Shown piece by piece: positions 4,079 through 33,457 of a stretch of DNA of 64,000 nucleotides (position 1 is the first letter of the stretch; every line of letters begins with the position of its first letter). Origin of the DNA: a virus (taxonomy: Duplodnaviria; Caudoviricetes); the IMG/VR virus record IMGVR_UViG_3300023174_000037. One strand, 5' to 3'. The translations under genes and the position numbers were made by a program. The notes under the pieces are model-generated. The model had not been told where the DNA came from. It did not search any database and was given only the letters and a program-made list of their open reading frames with translations.

Positions 4079-4153
4079 TGGTGCCCTGTAATAGAATCGA
4101 ACTACTACACCCGGACTACAAAACCGGACCTCTACCATTAAGGATAACAGGGC
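4079..4153 (-). tRNA. tRNA-Thr(TGT), second atypical copy
   Basis: Acceptor GCCCTGT/ACAGGGC, loop TT-TGT-AG, T-T mismatch at 31-39, weak D stem. Confidence 0.75.
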
Positions 4154-4158
4154 ATGTA

Positions 4159-4234
4159 TGGTGGTGCCTCCAGGAATTGAACCTGGTTCAACGGCTCTTC
4201 AGACCGCCGCTATGACCACATCAGCTAAAGCACC
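4159..4234 (-). tRNA. tRNA-Phe(GAA)
   Basis: Cloverleaf, loop CT-GAA-GA, CCA. Confidence 0.93.
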
Positions 4235-4300
4235 ATATAGAAGCACACTCACGTTTCTGATGTCTCTGTATACTGTGTGTATACCGAGTATGCTTTTATA
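4235..4300 (-). repeat. Structured spacer motif, copy 1 (similar to the tmRNA intervening segment and the 9337-9404 element)
   Basis: Outer stem AAGCATACTC/GAGTGTGCTT, inner hairpin GTATAC-ACACA-GTATAC, tail AGAGACATCAGAAACGT. Confidence 0.7.
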
Positions 4301-4472
4301 TGGTAGGACCGCCCGGATTCGAACCGGGGATTGGCAGATTAAAAGTCTGCTGTGATACCGCTTCACCACGATCCCTTACTTTTTGTAAACGTCTAAGAGC
4401 TTTGGTACTCTTGCGGTGCGAGCCCGCCTTCCGTTTACTTGCCAATACAGCAAATATATTTCTTGGTTTCAT
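4296..4472 (-). CDS. Small Lys/Arg-rich ORF (MKPRNIFAVLASKRKAGSHRKS...) reading through tRNA-Lys
   Basis: Strong RBS AAGGAG; no in-frame stop before the tRNA. Confidence 0.4.
   Translation of the reverse strand: MKPRNIFAVLASKRKAGSHRKSTKALRRLQKVRDRGEAVSQQTFNLPIPGSNPGGPTI
4301..4375 (-). tRNA. tRNA-Lys(TTT)
   Basis: Cloverleaf, loop CT-TTT-AA, CCA. Confidence 0.95.
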
Positions 4473-4493
4473 TTCGCTTCTCCTTTTAAAAAT

Positions 4494-4570
4494 TGGTGGG
4501 TCTTGAGAGACTCGAACTCCCAACCGCTGGTTTCGAAGACCAGAACTCTAATCCATTGAGCTAAAGACCC
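4494..4570 (-). tRNA. tRNA-Arg(TCG)
   Basis: Cloverleaf, loop CT-TCG-AA. Confidence 0.93.
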
Positions 4571-4576
4571 GTATAC

Positions 4577-4668
4577 TGGTACCCCCGGCGGGAATCGAAC
4601 CCACATGAACCAATTATCTGTTGCTTACGGGATATAAATCCGCCGTTTTACCGTTAAACTACAGGGGC
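4577..4668 (-). tRNA. tRNA-Ile(TAT)-like with about 22-nt extra/variable region
   Basis: Acceptor GCCCCTG/CGGGGGT, A73 and CCA, loop TT-TAT-AT, insert AAGCAACAGATAATTGGTTCAT before the T arm. Confidence 0.75.
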
Positions 4669-4673
4669 AAATT

Positions 4674-4747
4674 TGGTGCTCTAACGTAGAATCGAACTAC
4701 GATTACTGTCATACCAAGACAGAGTTCTGCCATTAAACTATAAGAGC
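4674..4747 (-). tRNA. tRNA-Thr(GGT)
   Basis: Stem CTGTC/GACAG, loop TT-GGT-AT. Confidence 0.92.
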
Positions 4748-4752
4748 AAACA

Positions 4753-4827
4753 TGGAGCAGGATATCGGGGTCGAACCGATGACCTACACGTTGGCAACGT
4801 GTCGTTCTTCCACTGAACTAATCCTGC
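4753..4827 (-). tRNA. tRNA-Gly(GCC)
   Basis: Loop TT-GCC-AA, U73. Confidence 0.95.
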
Positions 4828-4832
4828 ATGAT

Positions 4833-4920
4833 TGGCGGAGAGTATCAGATTCGAACTGATGCGCCTCTTTCGAAACGACAGTTTAGCAAACTGCTGGTTT
4901 AACCACTCACCCAACTCTCC
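4833..4920 (-). tRNA. tRNA-Ser(GCT)
   Basis: Class II cloverleaf, loop TT-GCT-AA. Confidence 0.95.
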
Positions 4921-4927
4921 GTTATCT

Positions 4928-5002
4928 TGGTAGCCACGGTTGGGAACGATCCAACGGCCTAACGCTTATCAAGCGTTTGCTCTACCACTGAGCTACGCGG
5001 CT
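4928..5002 (-). tRNA. tRNA-Ile(GAT)
   Basis: Loop TT-GAT-AA, CCA. Confidence 0.93.
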
Positions 5003-5010
5003 ATATTGAA

Positions 5011-5230
5011 TTTGTTAAAGTAGCAGCACCACATTATTGCTGCCATTCACCCGAATTAACAAGCTCGAGCGGGAGTCGGTAAGTTACTTGGGATACCGGT
5101 CCAGTTTAGTCGCCTCAATGGACCCCTGCAGTTTCCCGCAGGGTGGGTGTCGAACCCATCACCTTCTACTGCGTTGGTCCTTCGAAGAAACCTAGACAGC
5201 GTGACTTTCTCTTGCTAACACTCTAACAAA
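5011..5230 (-). ncRNA. Unassigned structured RNA of about 220 nt (weak RNase P RNA-like elements)
   Basis: Terminal stem TTTGTTAGAGT/ACTTTAACAAA with G-U pairs favouring the minus strand, several internal hairpins, no ORF. Confidence 0.6.
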
Positions 5231-5233
5231 ACT

Positions 5234-5309
5234 TGGTACCTGAGACTGGACTCGAACCAGTATCGCTCTCCTTGTAAGGGAGACGTATAACCTCTCTACG
5301 CACTCAGGC
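5234..5309 (-). tRNA. tRNA-Val(TAC)
   Basis: Loop CT-TAC-AA. Confidence 0.93.
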
Positions 5310-5337
5310 TTTATATTCTCTAAGAACGACCCATGTA

Positions 5338-5416
5338 TGGTCCGAGTAGAAGGATTCGAACCTTCGATCTCCTGCTCCCAAAGCAGGCGGATTAAACCAG
5401 ACTTTCCTACACTCGG
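5338..5416 (-). tRNA. tRNA-Pro(TGG)
   Basis: Stem CCTGC/GCAGG, loop TT-TGG-GA, C1-G72, A73. Confidence 0.93.
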
Positions 5417-5419
5417 AGA

Positions 5420-5463
5420 AAAGAAAAACCACCAAGCTGTCCCCGAAGGCAACAGAAGGTGGC
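5420..5463 (-). terminator. UUCG-capped hairpin followed by a U-tract (terminator or processing site)
   Basis: CCACC..CTGT..CC-TTCG-GG..ACAG..GGTGG then TTTTTCTTTT. Confidence 0.5.
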
Positions 5464-5475
5464 CGTATTAAAAAG

Positions 5476-5596
5476 GTGAACAAGTCGTTATCACTGCCAC
5501 GCCCGGATATAATTACTCGCTCGGCAAGGGTACGTCACTAGACGGTTAGGAAAGGTAACCCGTGTGCATTTAACACTGCTCAAACAACTTGTTCAT
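5476..5596 (-). ncRNA. Unassigned structured RNA of about 120 nt
   Basis: 13-bp closing stem TGAACAAGTTGTT/AACGACTTGTTCA and internal hairpins. Confidence 0.55.
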
Positions 5597-5599
5597 AGT

Positions 5600-5674
5600 T
5601 GGTGGAAATAAGTAGATTCGAACTACTGACCTGCGCCGTATGAAGGCGATGCACTACCGCTGTGCTATATTTCC
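5600..5674 (-). tRNA. tRNA(CAT), elongator Met or Ile2
   Basis: G1-C72 paired (not an initiator), loop TT-CAT-AC. Confidence 0.88.
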
Positions 5675-5678
5675 AAAT

Positions 5679-5753
5679 TGGCGGTCTGTGGGGGAATCGA
5701 ACCCCCGTAAGTGGATAGACAATCCACAGTAATAACCTCTATACGAACAGACC
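5679..5753 (-). tRNA. tRNA-Asp(GTC)
   Basis: Loop TT-GTC-TA, G73. Confidence 0.93.
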
Positions 5754-5759
5754 TAAAAT

Positions 5760-5837
5760 TGGAGCAACGGGCGTGATTTGAACACGCGGTTTTACGGATT
5801 TGCAATCCGTTGCATTGGACCACTCTGCCACCGTTGC
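5760..5837 (-). tRNA. tRNA-Cys(GCA)
   Basis: Loop TT-GCA-AA, U73. Confidence 0.92.
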
Positions 5838-5844
5838 ATAAAAT

Positions 5845-5921
5845 TGGCTCCCCGTCGTGGGCTCGAACCACGGACATCGACATTAACAGTGTCGCGCAAC
5901 TACCAACTGTGCTAACGGGGA
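5845..5921 (-). tRNA. tRNA-Asn(GTT)
   Basis: Loop CT-GTT-AA, G73. Confidence 0.95.
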
Positions 5922-5929
5922 ATAAAAAC

Positions 5930-6003
5930 TGGAGCGGAGTGAGAGAATCGAACTCTCGACCGAAGATTGGAAATCTGCTGTTTTGCCATTAAACTAACCC
6001 CGC
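5930..6003 (-). tRNA. tRNA-Gly(TCC)
   Basis: Loop TT-TCC-AA, U73. Confidence 0.95.
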
Positions 6004-6011
6004 AAAATGCT

Positions 6012-6114
6012 TTCTGTCCGTCGTGGTAATTATAGTGTATCAGAAATTTGGTCAGGCTTTACCCCAATTAATCTTTCATCACTTACACCCTCCACCCACT
6101 CGCCACGGACAGAA
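6012..6114 (-). ncRNA. Unassigned rod-like structured RNA of about 100 nt
   Basis: 10-bp closing stem TTCTGTCCGT/ACGGACAGAA plus further nested helices. Confidence 0.5.
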
Positions 6115-6117
6115 CTC

Positions 6118-6252
6118 TCGTGTTGCCAACGCTGGTTTGGTCGACCCCATGGATGAACCCATGTCCTCTAATTTAATAGAGAAGAACCACCCTACTGAGG
6201 ACAACTCAGTTTCATTTCCTCTGGGTCAGAGTAGCAGTTGTGAAGCTGCATG
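6118..6252 (-). ncRNA. Unassigned multi-hairpin RNA directly downstream of its own promoter
   Basis: Five to six consecutive short hairpins (GCAG/CTGC, CTCTG/CAGAG, ACTGAG/CTCAGT, CTCTA/TAGAG, CATGG/CCATG). Confidence 0.45.
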
Positions 6253-6264
6253 TTCAATAATACA

Positions 6265-6293
6265 ATTATACTTGATTATGGTTACAATGTCAA
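6265..6293 (-). promoter_or_regulatory. Consensus sigma70 promoter inside the tRNA array
   Basis: TTGACA-17 nt-TATAAT. Confidence 0.85.
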
Positions 6294-6304
6294 GCATACT
6301 TTTT

Positions 6305-6389
6305 TGGTGCGACTGGCCGGAATCGAACCGGCACACCCGAAAGCGAGAGATTTTAAGTCTCTTGTGTCTACCTATTTCACCACAGTCGC
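6305..6389 (-). tRNA. tRNA-Leu(TAA)
   Basis: Class II with long arm, loop CT-TAA-AA. Confidence 0.95.
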
Positions 6390-6399
6390 ATTTTATCAC

Positions 6400-6476
6400 T
6401 GGTGCCCAAGGAGAGACTCGAACTCTCAAAATACGGCTTCTAAGACCGGCATGTATACCAATTCCATCACCTGGGC
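6400..6476 (-). tRNA. tRNA-Leu(TAG), short variable region
   Basis: Loop CT-TAG-AA, A73; no long arm. Confidence 0.88.
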
Positions 6477-6500
6477 CTGAATTTTTAAAGAACAAGCGCA

Positions 6501-6529
6501 ATTGTAGCGTTTATTCTTTATGTTGTCAA
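6501..6529 (-). promoter_or_regulatory. sigma70 promoter for the downstream tRNAs
   Basis: TTGACA-17 nt-TACAAT. Confidence 0.8.
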
Positions 6530-6999
6530 CCGTTAACTATCTTAAGGCCTCTTATTCTGTCTGCTGCATAGCTGGCCGCAAATGCCTGTGGCTTTACTAA
6601 CGGAACAACATTACAGGTGCCTTTGATGTAGCCAATCGCTTGTGCGACTACATTACTGCTGGCATGATGATCATCTGGATTGATATCCAGGTGAACTTCA
6701 ACTGCTCTATCTTCCAGCACTTCGGCAAGTTTCAAGTATAGTTCGCTTACTTTATACACTTCGATCATTAGTCTTGTGTTAGGTTTGTTTACACGATCGT
6801 AATCACGTTCACGTGTAACTTCGCCAAACAATTTACAACCATTGTTACCGTTGATATGAACCACAATGGCCGCAGTATAAATGCCATACCATTGCTTATC
6901 GTGACCTCTGACACGCTCGCTATCCACACCAATATAGATACGTGTGTCTGGGCCTTGCGCTTCTATAAATTGTTTAATGTGTGGGATATCAAACTTCAT
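6526..6999 (-). CDS. RNase H-like fold protein (YkuK/DUF458 family)
   Basis: IYIGVDS, RLMxE, EVHLDIN and ASYAAD motifs. Confidence 0.7.
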   Translation of the reverse strand: MKFDIPHIKQFIEAQGPDTRIYIGVDSERVRGHDKQWYGIYTAAIVVHINGNNGCKLFGEVTRERDYDRVNKPNTRLMIEVYKVSELYLKLAEVLEDRAVEVHLDINPDDHHASSNVVAQAIGYIKGTCNVVPLVKPQAFAASYAADRIRGLKIVNG

Positions 7000-7027
7000 T
7001 ATTATCTTTCTATATATTAACTACATC

Positions 7028-7119
7028 TGGCGGAAAGCAGAGGAGTCGAACCCCATCCCATTTCTGAGAACCTGGTTTTCAAGGCCAGTCGCAGGACCAT
7101 CCCCGCTGCATTACTTTCC
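7028..7119 (-). tRNA. tRNA-Ser(TGA)
   Basis: Class II, loop CT-TGA-AA. Confidence 0.93.
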
Positions 7120-7124
7120 ATATT

Positions 7125-7198
7125 TGGCATACCCCCAGGGACTCGAACCCCGACTAATAGTTTTGGAGACTAGTGTGCTGCCATTACACTAGGGGCAT
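7125..7198 (-). tRNA. tRNA-Trp(CCA)
   Basis: Loop CT-CCA-AA, G73. Confidence 0.93.
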
Positions 7199-7205
7199 AT
7201 TAAAC

Positions 7206-7280
7206 TGGTACTCGGAAGGGGAATCGAACCCCTCTTCCCGCCGTGAAAGGGCGGTGTCCTAACCGATAGACGACCCGAGC
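7206..7280 (-). tRNA. tRNA-Glu(TTC)
   Basis: Stem CCGCC/GGCGG, loop CT-TTC-AC. Confidence 0.95.
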
Positions 7281-7287
7281 AAAAACT

Positions 7288-7376
7288 TGGTGGAAGTGGT
7301 TGGATTCGAACCAACAATGTTTCTTATGTGGCGGATTTACAGTCCGTTGCCTTCAACCAATTCAGCGCACACTTCC
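7288..7376 (-). tRNA. tRNA-Tyr(GTA)
   Basis: Class II, loop CT-GTA-AA. Confidence 0.95.
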
Positions 7377-7381
7377 CAACT

Positions 7382-7457
7382 TGGTGGAGGATATCGGACT
7401 CGAACCGATCACCCCTAGCTTGCAAAGCTAGTGCTCTCCCAGATGAGCTAAACCCCC
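7382..7457 (-). tRNA. tRNA-Ala(TGC)
   Basis: G3-U70, loop TT-TGC-AA. Confidence 0.95.
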
Positions 7458-7459
7458 AA

Positions 7460-7657
7460 TTATTTCTTATCTAGCTTTGGTTCTTCATAAACCATTGCTT
7501 CTTTTTCTACATAGACTGGAAAAAATTTCCAACCAAAACTTTTCCAATACTTGTGAATGATATTGTTGATAACAACTGCTGTTACTACAACAACAATAAA
7601 CCCAAGTCCTGTCAAAATTGAACCTGCTAAAAATACTGCTGCTTGATCAATGTCCAT
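7460..7657 (-). CDS. Small membrane protein (65 aa, MDIDQAAVFLAGS...)
   Basis: AAGGAG RBS; the longer ORF-track start overlaps tRNA-fMet. Confidence 0.65.
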   Translation of the reverse strand: MDIDQAAVFLAGSILTGLGFIVVVVTAVVINNIIHKYWKSFGWKFFPVYVEKEAMVYEEPKLDKK

Positions 7658-7671
7658 GCTTACTCCTTTAA

Positions 7672-7746
7672 TGGTTGCGGGGGAAGGAATCGAACCTCCG
7701 GCTTCCAGGTTATGAGCCTGGCGGTCTACCGCTGACGTACCCCGCG
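7672..7746 (-). tRNA. Initiator tRNA-fMet(CAT)
   Basis: C1-A72 mismatch, loop CT-CAT-AA. Confidence 0.9.
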
Positions 7747-7812
7747 ATATTAGGTGTAGGGCTTCCACCTACTCCCACCTCGTTTTAAAGTCCGCGTGTC
7801 CAGGACTTGATC

Positions 7813-8397
7813 TTACATGGTAGGACCATTTCCGTTCTTAAATCCCACCACACCGCCTTCTGCCTCAATACGTTTGATAACGTCTTCAAACAGGATAGGT
7901 GCAAAGTCAGTTTGTTCTACACAAACACAGTGATACCTAGTATCAACAATGTCAGTGATCTTGCCATTGAATCCTGGCAACATGACACGATTGGCATGCA
8001 AGTGTCCGTGGATGTTGACGCCAAAACGACCCAGACTTTCCGAGTGGATAGGAATGTGACTCAGGATCATTCCATTCATAACATGGTAAGCACGAAGTTC
8101 ACGAAAGTGTTCACGGTATTCACTGTCTCTGAAGATATCATGGTTACCACGGATCAACACCTTGTCACCGTTTAACCTGCGCATGATGCCTAAGGCTTTA
8201 CGGTTGATAACAACGTCACCTAAATGATAGACCTTGTCAGTGGGTTTTACCCGTTCGTTCCACGCCTTGACCATAGCTTCGTCCATCTCCTCTGCGGAAT
8301 CCCATGGACGAAGTTTTGTAACACCATCGTTACGTGTGAAGCGGCATACACCTGTGTGTCCAAAGTGCGTGTCGCTTACTAAAAATACACTAGGCAT
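7813..8397 (-). CDS. Calcineurin-like metallophosphoesterase
   Basis: SDTHFGH, LGDV, GNHD, SH and HGHLH motifs. Confidence 0.9.
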   Translation of the reverse strand: MPSVFLVSDTHFGHTGVCRFTRNDGVTKLRPWDSAEEMDEAMVKAWNERVKPTDKVYHLGDVVINRKALGIMRRLNGDKVLIRGNHDIFRDSEYREHFRELRAYHVMNGMILSHIPIHSESLGRFGVNIHGHLHANRVMLPGFNGKITDIVDTRYHCVCVEQTDFAPILFEDVIKRIEAEGGVVGFKNGNGPTM

Positions 8398-8908
8398 CTT
8401 GCCCTCCTTTCTTATCTGTTAAATGCTGTCTATAATCGGCTCTCCAACTGTGAGTCGAATCCTCACTATCGTAAGTCCACCCCAACAAGCGCATCATTTT
8501 ATGCTTGACCAACAAGTTAGGACTACGAAATCTTTCACAATCTCCAAATCCCATCATTACACCTATCTCGCACACTGCACCCGACCTGCAAATGCCAGCA
8601 TGACAGTGAACAACCACATTCATCCGATTTTCCCAGGCATGTTGCAACAATCGGACAAGTTGTTCTGCTTGCTCATCTGTGATGGCAAATTCACTGAGGT
8701 CAATTGTTCGACCGTCACCGGTGGTTGTTACACCTTCTTCTTCTTCTATATCCAAAAACGTAAATTGATGAATTTCTTTAAACGTATGCTTGGGTGTAGG
8801 GAACGCCATGTCGTGGTCTGAAATCTGTATCAGCATACTGTTGGCACCACAATCGTGATGCCTTCCTGTTGCTACATTTTCTAAAGGTATATTTTCAATC
8901 CACGGCAT
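8390..8908 (-). CDS. Protein-tyrosine/dual-specificity phosphatase-like protein
   Basis: VHCHAGICRS CX5R P-loop. Confidence 0.8.
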   Translation of the reverse strand: MPWIENIPLENVATGRHHDCGANSMLIQISDHDMAFPTPKHTFKEIHQFTFLDIEEEEGVTTTGDGRTIDLSEFAITDEQAEQLVRLLQHAWENRMNVVVHCHAGICRSGAVCEIGVMMGFGDCERFRSPNLLVKHKMMRLLGWTYDSEDSTHSWRADYRQHLTDKKGGQDA

Positions 8909-8928
8909 AATTGTCTCTTTCTAACTGT

Positions 8929-8957
8929 ATTATAGCTGATTGGCTATTTTGGGTCAA
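8929..8957 (-). promoter_or_regulatory. sigma70 promoter
   Basis: TTGACC-17 nt-TATAAT. Confidence 0.75.
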
Positions 8958-8988
8958 CCAACTAATTTGTAATACGTTTGTATTACGA

Positions 8989-9315
8989 TCATGCAGTCAT
9001 CCAGCGTTCCTCTGATTCGAGCACCAAACTTTCTGAACCATCATACTCGTCTATGCGGAACCTGGCACCCACTGGCACCCATTCTACTTGTAAATCTTCT
9101 GCCCCTCCGCAGTATGCTTCAGGATATTTTAACTCCATGTAGGTAAGAATTTTATCAAGTTCTTTGTTTTCAATCCAGGTCACAACACAAGGATCGTAGA
9201 CTAGTTCTTCGATATGGTGCCAAGTATACCAACCAGCACCGTATCCTGGACTTACCAACACAGCTACTCGACCATCACGAATTAATTTATTTGGCAATGA
9301 CATGATTTTCTCCAT
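8989..9315 (-). CDS. Conserved phage hypothetical protein
   Basis: ORF track, AVLVSPGYGAGW motif, RBS. Confidence 0.7.
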   Translation of the reverse strand: MEKIMSLPNKLIRDGRVAVLVSPGYGAGWYTWHHIEELVYDPCVVTWIENKELDKILTYMELKYPEAYCGGAEDLQVEWVPVGARFRIDEYDGSESLVLESEERWMTA

Positions 9316-9336
9316 AACACACTCTTATGAATGTGT

Positions 9337-9404
9337 GTATTAAAGCACACTCACCCGAATGGACCTTGTCACCTCCGCCTACTGTCGGAAGTGTGCTTTA
9401 ATAC
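9337..9404 (-). repeat. 15-bp perfect inverted repeat enclosing a hairpin (spacer motif copy 3)
   Basis: GTATTAAAGCACACT...AGTGTGCTTTAATAC; inner TCCG-ACAGTAGG-CGGA. Confidence 0.7.
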
Positions 9405-9510
9405 GCTGTGATTTTTCGCTCCACAAAAGGAGTTTCATCCCACAGGCCGCCCGTTTGTGCTTGTTTATAGTGTAGCACAGGACCTCGTTTCCTGCAACCA
9501 CTTTGTGCTG

Positions 9511-9675
9511 TTAGTTTACACTAAACGTTGGTGCTTTTGCTAACGCTTGGTGATACACTCTGGCACGTTCGAACTTATCTTGAATAAGTTTCTGAAGTTG
9601 TTCTTTATTCAAAACAGCTTCATAAGCCTGTTCAATGACACGTTCATTTAATTTTGTATGATCTATCTTTTCCAT
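9511..9675 (-). CDS. Small hypothetical protein (54 aa, MEKIDHTKLNERV...)
   Basis: Manual translation; AAGGA RBS right after the attenuator hairpin. Confidence 0.6.
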   Translation of the reverse strand: MEKIDHTKLNERVIEQAYEAVLNKEQLQKLIQDKFERARVYHQALAKAPTFSVN

Positions 9676-9689
9676 TTTTCCTTTTCTAA

Positions 9690-9785
9690 AAACAAAAAAC
9701 CCCAGGGTTTTTAATCCTAGGGTTCTTTAAGTTTGAGTAGTATCTGCTATTTAAGCGTACCCACTTCCCTTCAAGAACCCTGAGC
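9690..9785 (-). terminator. Attenuator: terminator hairpin with competing antiterminator
   Basis: AACCCTAGG/CCTGGGGTT stem plus U-tract; AGGGTTCTT (9773-9782) can pair with AAGAACCCT instead. Confidence 0.7.
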
Positions 9786-9906
9786 TAATATAGCCCTCTG
9801 GTGTGCGATCTAATGATAGACTATTGTTCGCAAACCAAGAGGTCAGCGTCAAGCATACCTGTTTGGCTATGGAACTAAATTGTCTATGTAAAGATAGCGA
9901 TTTCAT
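9751..9906 (-). CDS. Putative leader peptide (51 aa, MKSLSLHRQF...GFLKGSGYA)
   Basis: Lies between a consensus promoter and the attenuator; its 3' end overlaps the antiterminator arm. Confidence 0.55.
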   Translation of the reverse strand: MKSLSLHRQFSSIAKQVCLTLTSWFANNSLSLDRTPEGYISSGFLKGSGYA

Positions 9907-9962
9907 TTTTGTTTCTGGTTTCCTAAAATTTTACAAACAGCATCATTGCTGTCTATGTGTTT

Positions 9963-9991
9963 ATTATACAGTTATTTAGTCTCGTTGTCAA
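9963..9991 (-). promoter_or_regulatory. Consensus sigma70 promoter with embedded CTAAATA late-type motif
   Basis: TTGACA-ACGAGACTAAATAACTG-TATAAT. Confidence 0.85.
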
Positions 9992-10083
9992 CCTCTAAGT
10001 TTGTTTTTTTATCTTTTTCTTAAAAATATTTTTCAACTAAGTGTCAAGTATACACTGGATGTCATTCAAGGTCAACCAGCCGT

Positions 10084-10110
10084 AAAAAAAGACACCTAGG
10101 TGTCTTTTTA
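10084..10110. terminator. Palindromic, probably bidirectional terminator
   Basis: AAAAAGACAC-CTAG-GTGTCTTTTT. Confidence 0.65.
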
Positions 10111-10129
10111 TTTCTAGTAGAGTTAACTA

Positions 10130-10855
10130 TTAGAATGCTTTGCCTACTGAAAAGACTGCGGCATTGCGATATAGCTTTTGACCATTCACGGTGTTGGCTG
10201 TGTTGAATGTGCTAGTCTTGTCGCCGTTGGTGTAATACTTAGCGGCCAAGTTCCAACCTTGTAGGTTGTAACCTACACCAAAATTGTAATCATTGTAGTC
10301 CAATGAAGAACTGTTAGCAACATTAGTCTTACCTGCGTGAGCAAGCAAACTGATCTTTGATCCAGCGATTGGATATGCTACATCAGCTTGGTAGTATGCT
10401 GTGCCTTGTGCATTGGCTGTACCAAAATAACCATTGCCTAGTGTACGATTATACTTGACACTAACTGGACCATAACCTAGACCAACATAACCTTCGTATG
10501 TGTCAAAGTTTGAACCTGTCTTAGCTGAAGTAGTAGAACGTGGATAAAAATAGTTATAAGAACCAACATCAAGTGTTAGGCCTTTATAAATGTCTTTCTT
10601 CCAACCCGCATATACATCAGACTCAACACCCGAACCGTTTGTGTAAACTTGTGAGCTTACTGAACTGTTCCAGTTACCGATATAGAAACCGCTGGAGTGA
10701 TTGTAGTCAATGCCGCCTTGGACAGCAGGAGCATTTTGGGATTGACTGATGCCGCGGAAACGGTAGTCACTTGTCAAGCCTAAATTGCCAGATACTTGAG
10801 CATGAGCAGAAGTAATGCCAGCCAATACGAATAATGCTAATAGTAATTTCTTCAT
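10130..10855 (-). CDS. TorF-family putative outer-membrane porin (TIGR02001-like)
   Basis: Signal peptide; SDYRFRGISQS..PAVQGGIDY motif; C-terminal Phe. Confidence 0.85.
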   Translation of the reverse strand: MKKLLLALFVLAGITSAHAQVSGNLGLTSDYRFRGISQSQNAPAVQGGIDYNHSSGFYIGNWNSSVSSQVYTNGSGVESDVYAGWKKDIYKGLTLDVGSYNYFYPRSTTSAKTGSNFDTYEGYVGLGYGPVSVKYNRTLGNGYFGTANAQGTAYYQADVAYPIAGSKISLLAHAGKTNVANSSSLDYNDYNFGVGYNLQGWNLAAKYYTNGDKTSTFNTANTVNGQKLYRNAAVFSVGKAF

Positions 10856-10974
10856 TTGTTTTATTTCCTTTTAAAAGTAATGCTTAGAATAATATTTAGT
10901 GGGTTTCACGAGTGGCCTGTAATTTTTGCACACTTTCCTACCACTTTTATAGTTAACGGCATAGTTAACTGGCT

Positions 10975-11003
10975 AAAAAAGAGCCCACCGAAGCGGGCTC
11001 TTG
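10975..11003 (-). terminator. Rho-independent terminator after the tmRNA
   Basis: GAGCCCGC-TTCG-GTGGGCTC followed by TTTTTT. Confidence 0.85.
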
Positions 11004-11009
11004 TTATTT

Positions 11010-11345
11010 TCTGTTACGAGGTATAACTACCCTATCGCGGTGATTAAACTGCGAAAGATGTGGCTTTCACTGTACGAGCAGAGAACTTGACGTTCTTACC
11101 TGAAACAGTTACTTCGCCTGTAGATGTTTTTGCATTTACATTATTTGCTTGATTTACAGTCATCGCCTACTGTGTTGCCGTCTCTATTATCTCACCCTGT
11201 CGAAACCATGGCAGGCCCATTATGAAGTATACTCACGTTTCTTATGTCTCTGTTGGCTATGTGCCAACCGAATATACTTTATGGTGGACCTGGCGGGAGT
11301 CGAACCCGCGTCCAGAATGCCTTCACTTTGAAGGGATTACAACAA
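11010..11345 (-). ncRNA. ssrA: Circularly permuted (two-piece) tmRNA
   Basis: Acceptor piece ...GGACGCGGGTTCGACTCCCGCCAGGTCCACCA (ends 11282) precedes the coding piece GGGCCTGCCATGGTTTCGAC (starts 11218); G3-U70; tag ORF 11133-11044. Confidence 0.9.
11219..11281 (-). repeat. tmRNA intervening segment = spacer motif copy 2
   Basis: Outer stem AAGTATATTC/GAGTATACTT, inner GTTGGC-ACATA-GCCAAC, tail AGAGACATAAGAAACGT. Confidence 0.75.
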
Positions 11346-11349
11346 TTCT

Positions 11350-11589
11350 TTAATACACTGCAACAGGTATTGCGGGACTAAATCCTGCTAGTAGCGACTG
11401 ATAACCGTTTGCGCTTTCGGTGCTACTCCACATTCTAACATTTGTTGTAGTATCAGCAGTGTTGCTCCATATGTATACCTGTCCGTTGGTTGTTCCTGCA
11501 GTTGTTTGTGCGCTGATATAGCTAGCTAACTGGGAAGTTTCAGCCTCAGTGAGCACTCGAGGTACAGTTATTTCTGTAAAATATGCCAT
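11350..11589 (-). CDS. Hypothetical protein
   Basis: ORF track; AGGAG RBS. Confidence 0.65.
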   Translation of the reverse strand: MAYFTEITVPRVLTEAETSQLASYISAQTTAGTTNGQVYIWSNTADTTTNVRMWSSTESANGYQSLLAGFSPAIPVAVY

Positions 11590-32651: not shown

Positions 32652-33457
32652 CTTGGGGCAAAGTCCTGTTGTAGTTTGATATTGTCCATGAACTCTTTCT
32701 TGGTTCCAGAGTCTGTGGCGAAGCTACCTTTTAATACTGTGGTCTGTGTCAGACTCGAGTGCGCCATAATACCGCGATTCTCACAACAACCATGCGTGGC
32801 CTGTATATACACACCTACATTCTCTGAGTCCGTGGCTCGCATTATTTCTCTTGCGATGTCGTTGCATAGTTCTTCTTGAAGTGTGCCACGACGAGCACAC
32901 CACTGAGCGATCCTAGTATATTTAGACAGGCCAATAAGTTTATTAGCGGCGATGATTCCGATGTAAGCAACACCAGACACAGGCTGGTGATGATGACTGC
33001 ACATAGAACGCAGTTCGCTACGAACAACAAGCATGCCTTCATATCTATCCGCTGAATCATTTGGAAAAGCTGTTGCATCTGGTGCTGGATCATATCGACC
33101 TCCCATAATTTCGTTGTAATACATCTTGGCCAATCGCTTGGCTGTTCCTCGACTATTAGGATCTGTTTCACGATCAATTAATAAGGTGTCTAAGACCTTC
33201 TCAAATGCTTCGGTGGCTTCGTTGATTAGGATTTCCTTATCACCTTCGTGCAAGTAGTCGCTAATGTTGTCACCAGCCCAGAAACGTTTGTTATCACGCT
33301 TCATCTTAAAGCGGATAGCATCTGCTAAGTTAGCTTCTTCGTAGCCTTTATCGCCGATTACAGCATCTTCGTAGCCGGGATGGTATGGTGCTTCTACAAC
33401 CAATTGATCTGCTTTCAATCTATCGAATGTATCTTGGCTTGTATTTTTATCTGTCAA
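32648..33457 (-). CDS. folE: GTP cyclohydrolase I
   Basis: SMCSHH, IGLSK..R, QE.L and HGC...RG motifs. Confidence 0.95.
   Translation of the reverse strand: MTDKNTSQDTFDRLKADQLVVEAPYHPGYEDAVIGDKGYEEANLADAIRFKMKRDNKRFWAGDNISDYLHEGDKEILINEATEAFEKVLDTLLIDRETDPNSRGTAKRLAKMYYNEIMGGRYDPAPDATAFPNDSADRYEGMLVVRSELRSMCSHHHQPVSGVAYIGIIAANKLIGLSKYTRIAQWCARRGTLQEELCNDIAREIMRATDSENVGVYIQATHGCCENRGIMAHSSLTQTTVLKGSFATDSGTKKEFMDNIKLQQDFAPR

What the first reader, a model, noticed from the sequence alone, without database searches (positions are those of the whole stretch)
4235..11281. A covarying RNA motif reused as tRNA spacer, tmRNA intervening segment and intergenic element
Copies at 4235-4300 (after tRNA-Lys CCA) and 11219-11281 (after the tmRNA acceptor CCA) share an outer stem (AAG(C/T)ATA(C/T)TC / GAGT(G/A)T(G/A)CTT). 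Their inner hairpin stems have completely different sequence but keep pairing (GTATAC/GTATAC vs GTTGGC/GCCAAC, loop ACA(C/T)A), and both have the tail AGAGACATnAGAAACGT. A third variant at 9337-9404 keeps the outer stem and ACA loop. Both close copies sit between a CCA end and the 5' end of a tRNA-like domain, so they may be a dedicated processing signal, a small ribozyme or a stable excised sRNA. The motif may also explain how the tmRNA became permuted.
Basis: partly seen in the sequence, partly recalled or inferred. Interest (0 to 1): 0.72.

Follow-up and report, generated by a model that had tools for sequence, protein, structure and literature searches.

The report
Stem-clamped phage small RNA cassette
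A folded RNA of about 65 bases, carrying a nearly invariant 16-base purine-rich strand, sits exactly between a tRNA or tmRNA CCA end and the next tRNA-type 5' end in some uncultured freshwater giant phages; it is a real, conserved RNA not found in Rfam 15 or the searched papers, it is probably cut out by tRNA-trimming enzymes, and its job is unknown.

Summary
All tRNAs and the permuted tmRNA lie on the minus strand. Copy A (4300..4235) fills the tRNA-Lys/tRNA-Phe gap, and copy B (11281..11219) is the tmRNA intervening segment.

Both copies fold as a long closing stem plus a 6-bp hairpin plus an unpaired AGAGACAUNAGAAACG strand. I found 48 distinct copies in phage and metagenome contigs. In the 40 that were aligned, 98.6% of cells pair and 10 of 18 pairs show double changes. 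The 16-nt strand barely varies.

There is no credible Rfam match, no hit in 185,579 bacterial/archaeal species genomes, and none in T4.

The closing stem is generic: at least 43 different cargo clusters share it. The third element (9337-9404) is one of those other cargoes, not a variant of this motif.

Relatives carry this cargo in different slots: after tRNA-Lys/Glu/Thr/Leu, in the tmRNA gap, or behind a promoter. Their tmRNA gaps may instead hold ORFs or plain hairpins. Three complete clamp-bearing genomes lack the cargo altogether.

The best reading is an accessory, trans-acting small RNA released by tRNA-end processing. A ribozyme, a CRISPR-repeat mimic, or a cause of tmRNA permutation are not supported.

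This scan had already noted the clamp family on other DNA.

The parts
4235..4300 (-). Copy A: a complete 66-nt cassette between tRNA-Lys(UUU) A76 (4301) and tRNA-Phe G1 (4234)
   Evidence: CM R1 scores 94 bits
4285..4301 (-). Copy A closing stem, 5' arm (A76 + UAUAAAAGCAUACUCG). A76 pairs with U(-1) of tRNA-Phe.
   Evidence: pair counts on A1 and A2
4268..4284 (-). Copy A inner hairpin (GUAUAC / loop ACACA / GUAUAC)
   Evidence: 4 of its 6 pairs show changes on both sides across homologues
4252..4267 (-). Copy A invariant single strand AGAGACAUCAGAAACG
4235..4251 (-). Copy A closing stem, 3' arm (UGAGUGUGCUUCUAUAU), ending at U(-1) of tRNA-Phe
11219..11281 (-). Copy B: the 63-nt intervening segment of the permuted two-piece tmRNA gene, holding the same cargo in a shorter closing stem
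   Evidence: R1 scores 91 bits; ARAGORN tmRNA*
11236..11251 (-). Copy B invariant single strand AGAGACAUAAGAAACG
11252..11268 (-). Copy B inner hairpin (GUUGGC / loop ACAUA / GCCAAC)
9337..9404 (-). A related scaffold with a different cargo: the same type of closing stem (GUAUUAAAGCACACU / AGUGUGCUUUAAUAC) around a cargo beginning UUCCGACAGUAGGCGGA and ending GUCCAUUCGGGUGA. This is not the motif.
   Evidence: R1 scores only 25-27 bits, from the stem alone. The cargo family occurs in 8 distinct loci, and in 5 of them it is flush between tRNAs.
9316..9339 (-). A short 'empty' clamp-like hairpin (ACACAUUC-AUAA-GAGUGUGU) just before the ribosome-binding site of ORF 8989-9315
   Evidence: read directly from the sequence
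4301..4375 (-). tRNA-Lys(UUU), the upstream neighbour. It is the commonest upstream tRNA of this cargo: 11 of the 17 distinct tRNA-spacer copies.
10953..11394 (-). Permuted beta-type tmRNA gene: acceptor piece, intervening segment, coding piece and terminator

Best explanation
The element is a self-contained small-RNA gene. It is one 'cargo' of a phage-only family of stem-clamped cassettes that live in slots between a CCA 3' end and the next RNase P site.

It is transcribed as part of the tRNA or tmRNA precursor. RNase P cutting at G1 of the downstream tRNA or tmRNA coding piece sets its 3' end. An endonucleolytic cut at or just after A76 sets its 5' end. That cut could be RNase E-type, as at E. 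coli proK/L/M. Alternatively RNase III could cut inside the 17-bp stem.

The product would be a hairpin RNA of about 63-66 nt whose two ends are paired with each other, which should make it resistant to exonucleases. The closing stem stacks on a 6-bp hairpin. This displays a nearly invariant, purine-rich, deliberately unpaired 16-nt strand (AGAGACAY-N-RGAAAC-R).

That strand is the working surface. It most likely binds a conserved partner in trans, and a protein is more likely than an RNA. The function is accessory, not needed for tRNA or tmRNA maturation itself.

Shown here: the fold, covariation, strand, conservation, flush placement, slot independence, accessory distribution, and absence from bacteria and from Rfam.

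Inferred: which enzymes cut, that the product is stable, that it acts in trans, and what it binds.
For: Structure:
- 40 distinct copies show 98.6% paired cells, and 10 of 18 pairs change on both sides.
- G-U pairs lie on the tRNA-sense strand.

Conservation without ascertainment bias:
- A scan using only the 3' half plus stem found one change in the 5' half (U46C, L149).
- A scan using only the hairpin plus the 5' half found 7 further distinct copies (11 loci). Changes were seen only at A48G (1 copy) and G54A (3 distinct copies, one tmRNA lineage).

Flush placement: in tRNA contexts the cassette is exactly 66 nt, and A76 pairs with U(-1) of the next tRNA.

Slot independence:
- It follows tRNA-Lys (11 copies), tRNA-Thr (3), tRNA-Glu (2) and tRNA-Leu (1).
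- It sits in the gap of at least 5 tmRNA lineages.
- It sits behind a TTGACG-17-TATAAT promoter ahead of tRNA-Tyr.
- G001, G003, G004 and G005 keep one copy elsewhere, while their tmRNA gap holds an ORF or a plain hairpin.

Accessory distribution: complete genomes G409, G410 and G412 carry the clamp but not this cargo. Complete genomes G001 and G002 have one copy each.

The strand is kept free: it pairs less well with neighbouring array RNAs than about 98-99% of its own shuffles.

The closing stem is a shared scaffold. There are 43 cargo clusters and also empty hairpins. The canonical clamp pattern occurs only once or twice per complete genome, and it misses G001's own motif copy, whose 3' arm differs.

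Precedents:
- RNase E removes a hairpin by one cut right after CCA (PMC5291269).
- Permuted tmRNA transcripts are cut by tRNA-processing enzymes, and their gaps can carry passengers such as a tRNA gene (PMC11915505).
Against:
- No partner was identified, and no complementary target of 9 nt or more exists in the window.
- The stem buries the AU-rich sequence after CCA that RNase E would need single-stranded.
- The closing stem is conserved in sequence across cargoes. That could point to a specific stem-binding factor or to recombination, neither of which is part of this model.
- The cargo's frequent position in tmRNA gaps and after tRNA-Lys could reflect a cis role that I cannot see.
Confidence: 0.5

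Rival explanations
1. It is a cis-acting processing or insulating element. The long stem would be an RNase III-type stalk, like rRNA leader-trailer helices or T7 R sites, or a folding insulator that separates neighbouring tRNA-like domains. The conserved strand would recruit or position a nuclease for the neighbours' ends.
For: - The 17-bp stem is stacked on a 6-bp hairpin, giving about 23 bp continuous on the 5' strand.
- It sits flush with both mature ends.
- Empty clamps exist with no cargo.
- Bacterial permuted tmRNA gaps are also hairpins, and one shares the CCA-AAAG...CUUUUGAU-GGGG base with the phage gaps.
Against: - Most spacers in these arrays are under 20 nt and have no stem.
- The canonical clamp pattern occurs only once or twice per complete genome.
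- This cargo is absent from three complete clamp-bearing genomes.
- It is replaced by ORFs, other cargo or plain hairpins in relatives' tmRNA gaps.
- An invariant 16-nt strand is not needed for an RNase III stalk.
- No phage RNase III gene was found in G001 or G002, although the host enzyme could serve.
Confidence: 0.2
2. It is an anti-defence decoy or mimic RNA. It would imitate a host RNA (a CRISPR repeat as in Racr/SRU, a type III antitoxin, or a nuclease substrate) and so soak up a host defence protein.
For: - The distribution is accessory and patchy.
- A hairpin followed by a ...UNAGAAAC tail loosely resembles repeat-plus-handle layouts (from my own knowledge, not tested).
- Phage solitary repeat units sit behind promoters and inhibit CRISPR-Cas (PMC10651486).
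- The neighbouring tRNA arrays are themselves thought to counter anticodon nucleases.
Against: - The 19-nt core has 0 hits in 185,579 bacterial/archaeal species genomes.
- The looser core pattern gives 8 single hits in 401 genomes of the likely host order, against about 25 control hits, and never as an array.
- The CM finds nothing in 151 genomes of that order.
- No CRISPR-DR family of Rfam matches either motif copy at E<=10. The only CRISPR-DR row anywhere is a chance-level one beside the third element (RF01335, 11.4 bits against a gathering score of 50, E 6.4).
Confidence: 0.12
3. It is a new class of small self-cleaving ribozyme that helps to separate the neighbours.
For: - The size is about 55-66 nt.
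- Covarying helices surround an invariant junction strand.
- A metallophosphoesterase and a Cys-phosphatase, which could heal cyclic-phosphate ends, are encoded in the same arrays.
Against: - No hammerhead, twister, twister-sister, pistol, hatchet or HDV-like match at E<=10.
- The conserved strand is about 17 bp from both junctions that must be cut.
- No conserved pseudoknot partner was found.
- Other cargoes in the same scaffold are unrelated in sequence.
- The distribution is accessory.
Confidence: 0.05
4. It is a DNA-level element: a miniature transposon, or a recombination cassette boundary whose inverted repeats matter as DNA.
For: - The closing stem is conserved in sequence across unrelated cargoes and looks like terminal inverted repeats with TA flanks.
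- Cargoes appear to be swapped between slots and between phages.
Against: - Compensatory changes with G-U pairs occur only on the transcribed strand.
- Orientation is sense to the tRNAs for 124 of the 158 clamp matches with nearby tRNAs, and the 34 antisense ones include reverse-strand reads of near-palindromic stems.
- There are 1-2 copies of this cargo per genome.
- Boundaries are exact at A76 and G1.
Confidence: 0.06
5. It is a regulatory sensor in cis: a riboswitch-like aptamer or a put-like RNA polymerase modifier that controls read-through or maturation of downstream RNAs.
For: - One context is promoter-proximal.
- A compact fold surrounds an invariant purine-rich junction strand.
Against: - No riboswitch family matches.
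- No terminator or expression platform follows copy A.
- In the tmRNA gap it would sit upstream of the tmRNA's own terminator.
- The positions vary.
Confidence: 0.05

Closest known systems
Phage T4 stable RNAs species 1 and 2 (rnaC, rnaD) in the T4 tRNA gene cluster
   Same: They are small non-tRNA RNAs of unknown function, co-located with phage tRNA genes on the same strand and directly abutting a tRNA. By general knowledge they are released with the tRNAs.
   Different: There is no sequence or structure relation: CM R1 scores at most 11 bits on the T4 region. The T4 RNAs are 119-139 nt. rnaC has a T-arm-like 3' domain. They have no shared closing stem and no AGAGACAU..AGAAAC strand.
Intervening segment of circularly permuted two-piece tmRNA genes (Rfam RF04321, RF01850; Keiler et al. 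2000; Sharkady and Williams 2004; PMC11915505)
   Same: Copy B is such a segment. It lies between the acceptor-piece CCA and the coding-piece 5' end and must be removed by tRNA-processing enzymes. Segments carrying passengers (a tRNA gene, a repeat element) are on record (PMC11915505).
   Different: The three bacterial beta-type segments I read are plain 25-53-nt hairpins without the motif. Here the hairpin's tip carries a conserved cargo that also occurs outside tmRNA genes.
tRNA-precursor-derived small RNAs such as E. coli 3'ETS-leuZ, a sponge RNA from a tRNA external spacer
   Same: Both would be a functional RNA made as a by-product of tRNA precursor processing (general knowledge; papers listed).
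   Different: 3'ETS-leuZ acts by base pairing with the sRNAs RyhB and RybB. No target was found here. The phage RNA is an internal, stem-clamped cassette with exact flush ends.
RNase III processing stalks (16S/23S rRNA leader-trailer helices; phage T7 R sites)
   Same: A long helix formed by sequences flanking an RNA that is to be excised. T7 sites also carry an asymmetric internal loop (general knowledge).
   Different: Cleavage is untested. The stem is conserved in sequence as well as in pairing. The asymmetric 'loop' is 16 nt on one strand only and is nearly invariant.
RNase E removal of the terminator hairpin immediately after CCA at E. coli proK, proL and proM (PMC5291269)
   Same: A hairpin begins right after the CCA, and one endonucleolytic cut would generate the mature 3' end and release the hairpin as a fragment.
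   Different: Those hairpins are terminators that are then degraded. This one is followed by another RNase P substrate and carries a conserved cargo.
GOLLD and ROOL RNAs in phage tRNA islands (PMC12286853)
   Same: They are structured non-coding RNAs of unknown function that cluster with phage tRNA genes. GOLLD occurs in relatives' arrays (L048, L065).
   Different: They are hundreds of nucleotides long, multimeric and in Rfam. This RNA is about 65 nt and uncatalogued.
RNA anti-CRISPRs / solitary repeat units (PMC10651486)
   Same: They are small phage non-coding RNAs with a hairpin plus a conserved tail, sometimes right behind a promoter.
   Different: No matching CRISPR repeat was found in bacteria or among the CRISPR-DR families of Rfam.

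Membership tests
Known self-cleaving ribozyme classes (hammerhead, twister, twister-sister, pistol, hatchet, HDV-like) | Match to the family covariance model or catalytic core | tested here: not met
   cmscan at E<=10 on 4100-4420 and 11212-11290 lists no ribozyme family.
Known self-cleaving ribozyme classes | Site-specific self-cleavage | not testable with these tools
   This needs an in-vitro transcript assay.
Permuted two-piece tmRNA intervening segment | Lies between the acceptor-piece CCA and the coding-piece 5' end of a gene matching the permuted tmRNA model | tested here: met
   This holds for copy B only. RF04321 scores 123 bits and RF01850 119 bits; the CCA is at 11284-11282 and G1 at 11218.
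RNase III processing stalk | About two turns of dsRNA formed by the flanks of the excised RNA | tested here: met
   The closing stem is 17 bp with one A-C mismatch and stacks on the 6-bp hairpin.
RNase III processing stalk | Cleavage by RNase III | not testable with these tools
   No RNase III gene was found in relatives G001 or G002; the host enzyme would be needed.
CRISPR repeat mimic (Racr / solitary repeat unit) | Sequence and fold similar to a CRISPR repeat of a plausible host | tested here: not met
   The 19-nt core has 0 hits in 185,579 species genomes. No arrays were found in 401 genomes of the likely host order. No CRISPR-DR family matches either motif copy at E<=10.
T4 rnaC / rnaD | Sequence and structure homology | tested here: not met
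   R1 with filters off on T4 69.5-73.5 kb scores at best 11.1 bits, E 0.26.
tRNA-spacer-derived base-pairing sRNA (3'ETS-leuZ type) | Complementarity to a target RNA | tested here: inconclusive
   The window holds no complementary site of 9 nt or more other than the motif's own antisense, three 9-mers scattered on the tRNA-sense strand (near 33287 and 56190), one on the antisense strand (45266), and an 11-nt run on the non-transcribed strand of tRNA-Tyr. Duplexes with array RNAs are weaker than for shuffles. Host RNAs could not be searched.
Miniature transposon (MITE) | Many copies, both orientations, inverted repeats conserved as DNA | tested here: not met
   There are 1-2 copies of this cargo per genome. 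Orientation is mostly sense. Compensatory and G-U changes lie on the RNA strand.
Stem-clamped cassette family of freshwater phage tRNA arrays (uncatalogued; noted earlier by this scan on other DNA) | Closing stem of the type AAARYAYAYUC / GARURURYUUY starting on the preceding CCA end and enclosing a variable cargo | tested here: met
   More than 120 viral contigs carry CCATATAAAAACACAYTC. There are 43 cargo clusters in sense orientation. Copies A and B and element 9337-9404 all have this stem type.

The most novel reading that the evidence does not exclude
Freshwater giant phages may use the cell's tRNA-trimming machinery as a production line for a swappable library of small, stem-protected RNAs. 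Under this reading, this cargo, with its invariant displayed purine strand, is a trans-acting aptamer-like RNA that captures a specific host protein, such as a defence nuclease, an RNase or a translation factor. That would be a new class of RNA-based host take-over or counter-defence factor, and the tmRNA gap would be just one more docking slot for it.
Probability: 0.25. Interest if true: 0.85.

Novelty: new variant of a known kind. Interest (0 to 1): 0.62.

Why it matters
Small stable RNAs in phage tRNA clusters have been known since T4 species 1 and 2, and they are still unexplained. This one is compact at about 65 nt. It has textbook-quality covariation and a nearly invariant 16-nt strand. 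It is embedded in a modular scaffold and occurs in defined, interchangeable slots.

That makes the old question testable. The RNA is short enough to synthesise, mutate, pull down and express in trans.

It also shows that the gap of a permuted tmRNA gene can serve as a cargo bay for small RNAs and even for ORFs. And it gives annotators a covariance model for a family that Rfam lacks.

Tried and rejected
- Known families: the Rfam gathering scan of the window, and E<=10 scans of all three elements, gave only chance-level rows.
- Target search: the window holds no complementary site of 9 nt or more beyond the motif's own antisense, three 9-mers scattered on the tRNA-sense strand (near 33287 and 56190), one on the antisense strand (45266), and an 11-nt run on the non-transcribed strand of tRNA-Tyr. 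Duplex energies with tRNAs, tmRNA and other array RNAs are weaker than for shuffled strands.
- Alternative pairing: AGAAAC could pair with GUUUCU in the stem's 3' arm in some copies. The covariation that keeps the closing stem breaks this pairing in copies A and B (read), so I rejected it.
- Promoter idea: the T-loop TTCGAA lies 17 nt before the TATAAA that follows CCA. The sigma-70 scan finds nothing at copy A, and the hexamer is not conserved in copy B. Rejected. The clamp is not a terminator either.
- Phage RNase III: PF14622 is absent from G001 and G002.
- T4 homologue: none.
- CRISPR mimic and bacterial counterpart: none found.
- Diverged variants: among 100 clamp-selected loci (875 kb) the CM finds one full copy, and all other hits score 45 bits or less. 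The cargo is therefore a discrete family, not a continuum.
- No k-turn, loop E, T-loop or GNRA-receptor signature could be fitted to the junction by eye.

Full report
**Setting**

The window carries 30 tRNA genes and a circularly permuted, beta-proteobacterial-type tmRNA gene, all on the minus strand. It has no near relative among deposited phage genomes, and no whole genome is held for it. Earlier notes of this scan call it an uncultured freshwater T4-related jumbo phage. Relatives that I fetched are records of 220-365 kb. A porin-like gene in the window has its closest homologues (45% identity at best) mostly in records named as Betaproteobacteria.

**The observation**

Read on the minus strand, copy A is the 66 nt from 4300 down to 4235. 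It fills exactly the gap between A76 of tRNA-Lys(UUU) and G1 of tRNA-Phe. Copy B is the 63 nt from 11281 down to 11219. It fills exactly the gap between the CCA of the tmRNA acceptor piece and G1 of the coding piece.

Both copies have the same layout:
- a long closing stem;
- a 6-bp hairpin with a 5-nt loop of the form NNAYA;
- a 16-nt unpaired strand, AGAGACAUNAGAAACG, which joins the hairpin back to the stem.

That strand occurs only at these two places in the window, even with 3 mismatches allowed. The two copies and the element at 9337-9404 are the three longest inverted repeats in 11.7 kb. The two copies fold 4.5-4.9 standard deviations better than shuffles, with the strand left free.

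**Homologues and covariation**

An exact scan for 19 specified bases of the strand found the following:
- 16 real copies in IMG/VR, plus 2 loci carrying one chance sequence;
- 48 metagenome loci;
- nothing in 185,579 bacterial and archaeal species genomes.

Forty distinct copies align without gaps. On the core structure, 98.6% of cells form standard pairs. Ten of 18 pairs change on both sides. No shuffle out of 500 reaches the observed covariation score, and sliding the partners destroys the pairing. Several positions use G-U on the tRNA-sense strand, which would be A-C on the other strand, so the fold is that of the transcript.

Because those copies were fished with the strand itself, I repeated the search with baits that leave each half of the strand free:
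- The 3' half plus stem brought only one new variant, U46C.
- The hairpin plus the 5' half brought 7 further distinct copies (11 loci). The 3' half changed only at A48G (one copy) and G54A (3 distinct copies, one tmRNA lineage).

Position 47 takes all four bases. So the strand is AGAGACAY-N-RGAAAC-R, and it is truly conserved while both helices drift and compensate.

**Not a known family**

Rfam 15 gives no credible match to any of the three elements at E<=10. My covariance model finds nothing in the T4 tRNA region or in 151 genomes of the likely host order. The papers I searched describe GOLLD and ROOL in phage tRNA islands, and passengers in tmRNA intervening sequences, but not this RNA.

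**The closing stem is a shared scaffold**

The covariance model also gave weak hits that share only the stem. In these the same stem, starting on a tRNA's CCA end and finishing just before the next tRNA, encloses many unrelated inserts of 3-95 nt as well as empty hairpins.

Clustering gave 43 cargo clusters in sense orientation, 17 of them with two or more distinct sequences. The motif studied here is one of the three largest, although the sample is biased by my baits.

The third element of the finding (9337-9404) belongs to a different cargo family. That family is seen in 8 distinct loci, five of them flush between tRNAs. It is therefore not a variant of the motif.

The canonical stem pattern is not the general spacer of these arrays. 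Most spacers are under 20 nt, and complete genomes carry the pattern only once or twice; G001's own motif copy has a slightly different 3' arm and is missed by it.

This scan had already noted the stem-closed cassette family on other DNA. I reached it independently, and my counts agree with those notes.

**Where this cargo sits**

Three kinds of position were seen:
- After a tRNA. Among the 17 distinct tRNA-spacer copies the upstream tRNA is Lys(UUU) 11 times, Thr 3, Glu 2 and Leu 1. The downstream partner varies (Phe, Ala, Met, His, Arg, Val).
- In the tmRNA gap. At least five tmRNA lineages with different acceptor stems carry it there.
- At the head of a tRNA operon. In another group it is the first element behind a TTGACG-17-TATAAT promoter and is followed by tRNA-Tyr.

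In the tRNA contexts the cassette is exactly 66 nt, and its terminal base pair is A76 with U(-1) of the next tRNA.

**The cargo is a passenger and is accessory**

Relatives G001, G003, G004 and G005 each have one copy in a tRNA or promoter slot. Their permuted tmRNA gaps hold something else: an ORF that I read as about 67 codons in G001, and a plain hairpin in G003. G002 has a longer ORF in what looks like a tmRNA gap, although its tmRNA match falls below Rfam's cut-off. Other loci hold other cargoes.

Three bacterial beta-type permuted tmRNAs have plain 25-53-nt hairpin gaps. One of them shares the CCA-AAAG...CUUUUGAU-GGGG base with the phage gaps. So the phage cargo sits at the tip of an ancestral hairpin and cannot explain the permutation.

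Three complete genomes that carry the stem (364 kb, 364 kb and 223 kb) lack this cargo, while two complete ones have it. It is therefore not needed for tRNA or tmRNA maturation.

The window's two copies are not recent duplicates. Each groups with its own set of orthologues in other phages: the tRNA-Lys type resembles L181, and the tmRNA type resembles L008 and L159.

**How it most likely works**

Both ends of the cassette coincide with ends that the cell must make anyway. RNase P at G1 of the downstream RNA sets the 3' end. This rests on established knowledge; a U at position -1, present here, is the preferred context.

The 5' end needs an endonucleolytic cut at or near A76. There are two candidates:
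- RNase E. In E. coli it removes a hairpin in one step by cutting immediately after CCA at proK, proL and proM (PMC5291269).
- RNase III. It could instead cut within the 17-bp stem and leave short tails for trimming.

Neither relative genome that I checked encodes RNase III, so host enzymes would act.

The released hairpin would have its two ends paired to each other, which should protect it. The 16-nt strand pairs less well with surrounding array RNAs than about 98-99% of its own permutations. That fits selection to stay exposed. No complementary target exists in the window.

I therefore read the strand as a binding surface for a conserved partner in trans, more likely a protein than an RNA. 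All of this paragraph is inference, apart from the geometry.

**Context that may matter**

Three genes are embedded in this array and recur in relatives' arrays: an RNase H-like protein (PF04308), a calcineurin-type phosphoesterase and a Cys-phosphatase. They could take part in RNA end processing or repair. I could not test a link.

**Verdict**

The RNA is a new family within a known kind (small RNAs of phage tRNA clusters), carried by an uncatalogued modular scaffold. Its function remains open.

Noticed in passing
window 4376-4472 (-): A 32-codon, very basic micro-ORF with a strong ribosome-binding site lies directly upstream of tRNA-Lys. tblastn finds it in 10 other phage loci, often next to tRNA-Lys.
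   Followed up: partly
window 6526-6999, 7813-8397, 8390-8908 (-): An RNase H-like protein (PF04308), a calcineurin-type metallophosphoesterase and a dual-specificity/Cys phosphatase are embedded in the tRNA array. They recur in 23, 47 or more, and 18 related loci respectively. They are candidate RNA processing or end-healing enzymes.
   Followed up: partly
window 5003-5233 and 5417-5599 (-): Two further non-tRNA modules sit inside the array, each closed by its own terminal stem (18-nt arms 184 nt apart; 13-nt arms 93 nt apart). No Rfam family matches them at gathering score.
   Followed up: no
L230 (G001 264534-264973) and L233 (G002): In related jumbo phages the tmRNA-type gap contains a protein-coding ORF with its own ribosome-binding site. 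I read about 67 codons in G001 and a longer ORF in G002. G002's tmRNA match is below Rfam's cut-off.
   Followed up: partly
L065 9400-9864, L048 2633-3098: GOLLD RNA (RF02032, more than 200 bits) lies inside the tRNA arrays of related phages.
   Followed up: no
window 10130-10855 (-): A Gcw_chp (PF09694) outer-membrane-type protein gene sits between the tRNA array and the tmRNA gene. Its nearest homologues (45% identity at best) are mostly in records named as Betaproteobacteria, which hints at the host group.
   Followed up: partly
L011 and L190, around the motif: In some phages the cargo lies in rows of cassettes with a variant stem (AUUCUAAARCACAC) that are not separated by tRNAs.
   Followed up: no
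spacers of all fetched loci: A second recurrent spacer start, CCA-AGUUUUAGGAU..., heads another group of stem-closed inter-tRNA modules.
   Followed up: no
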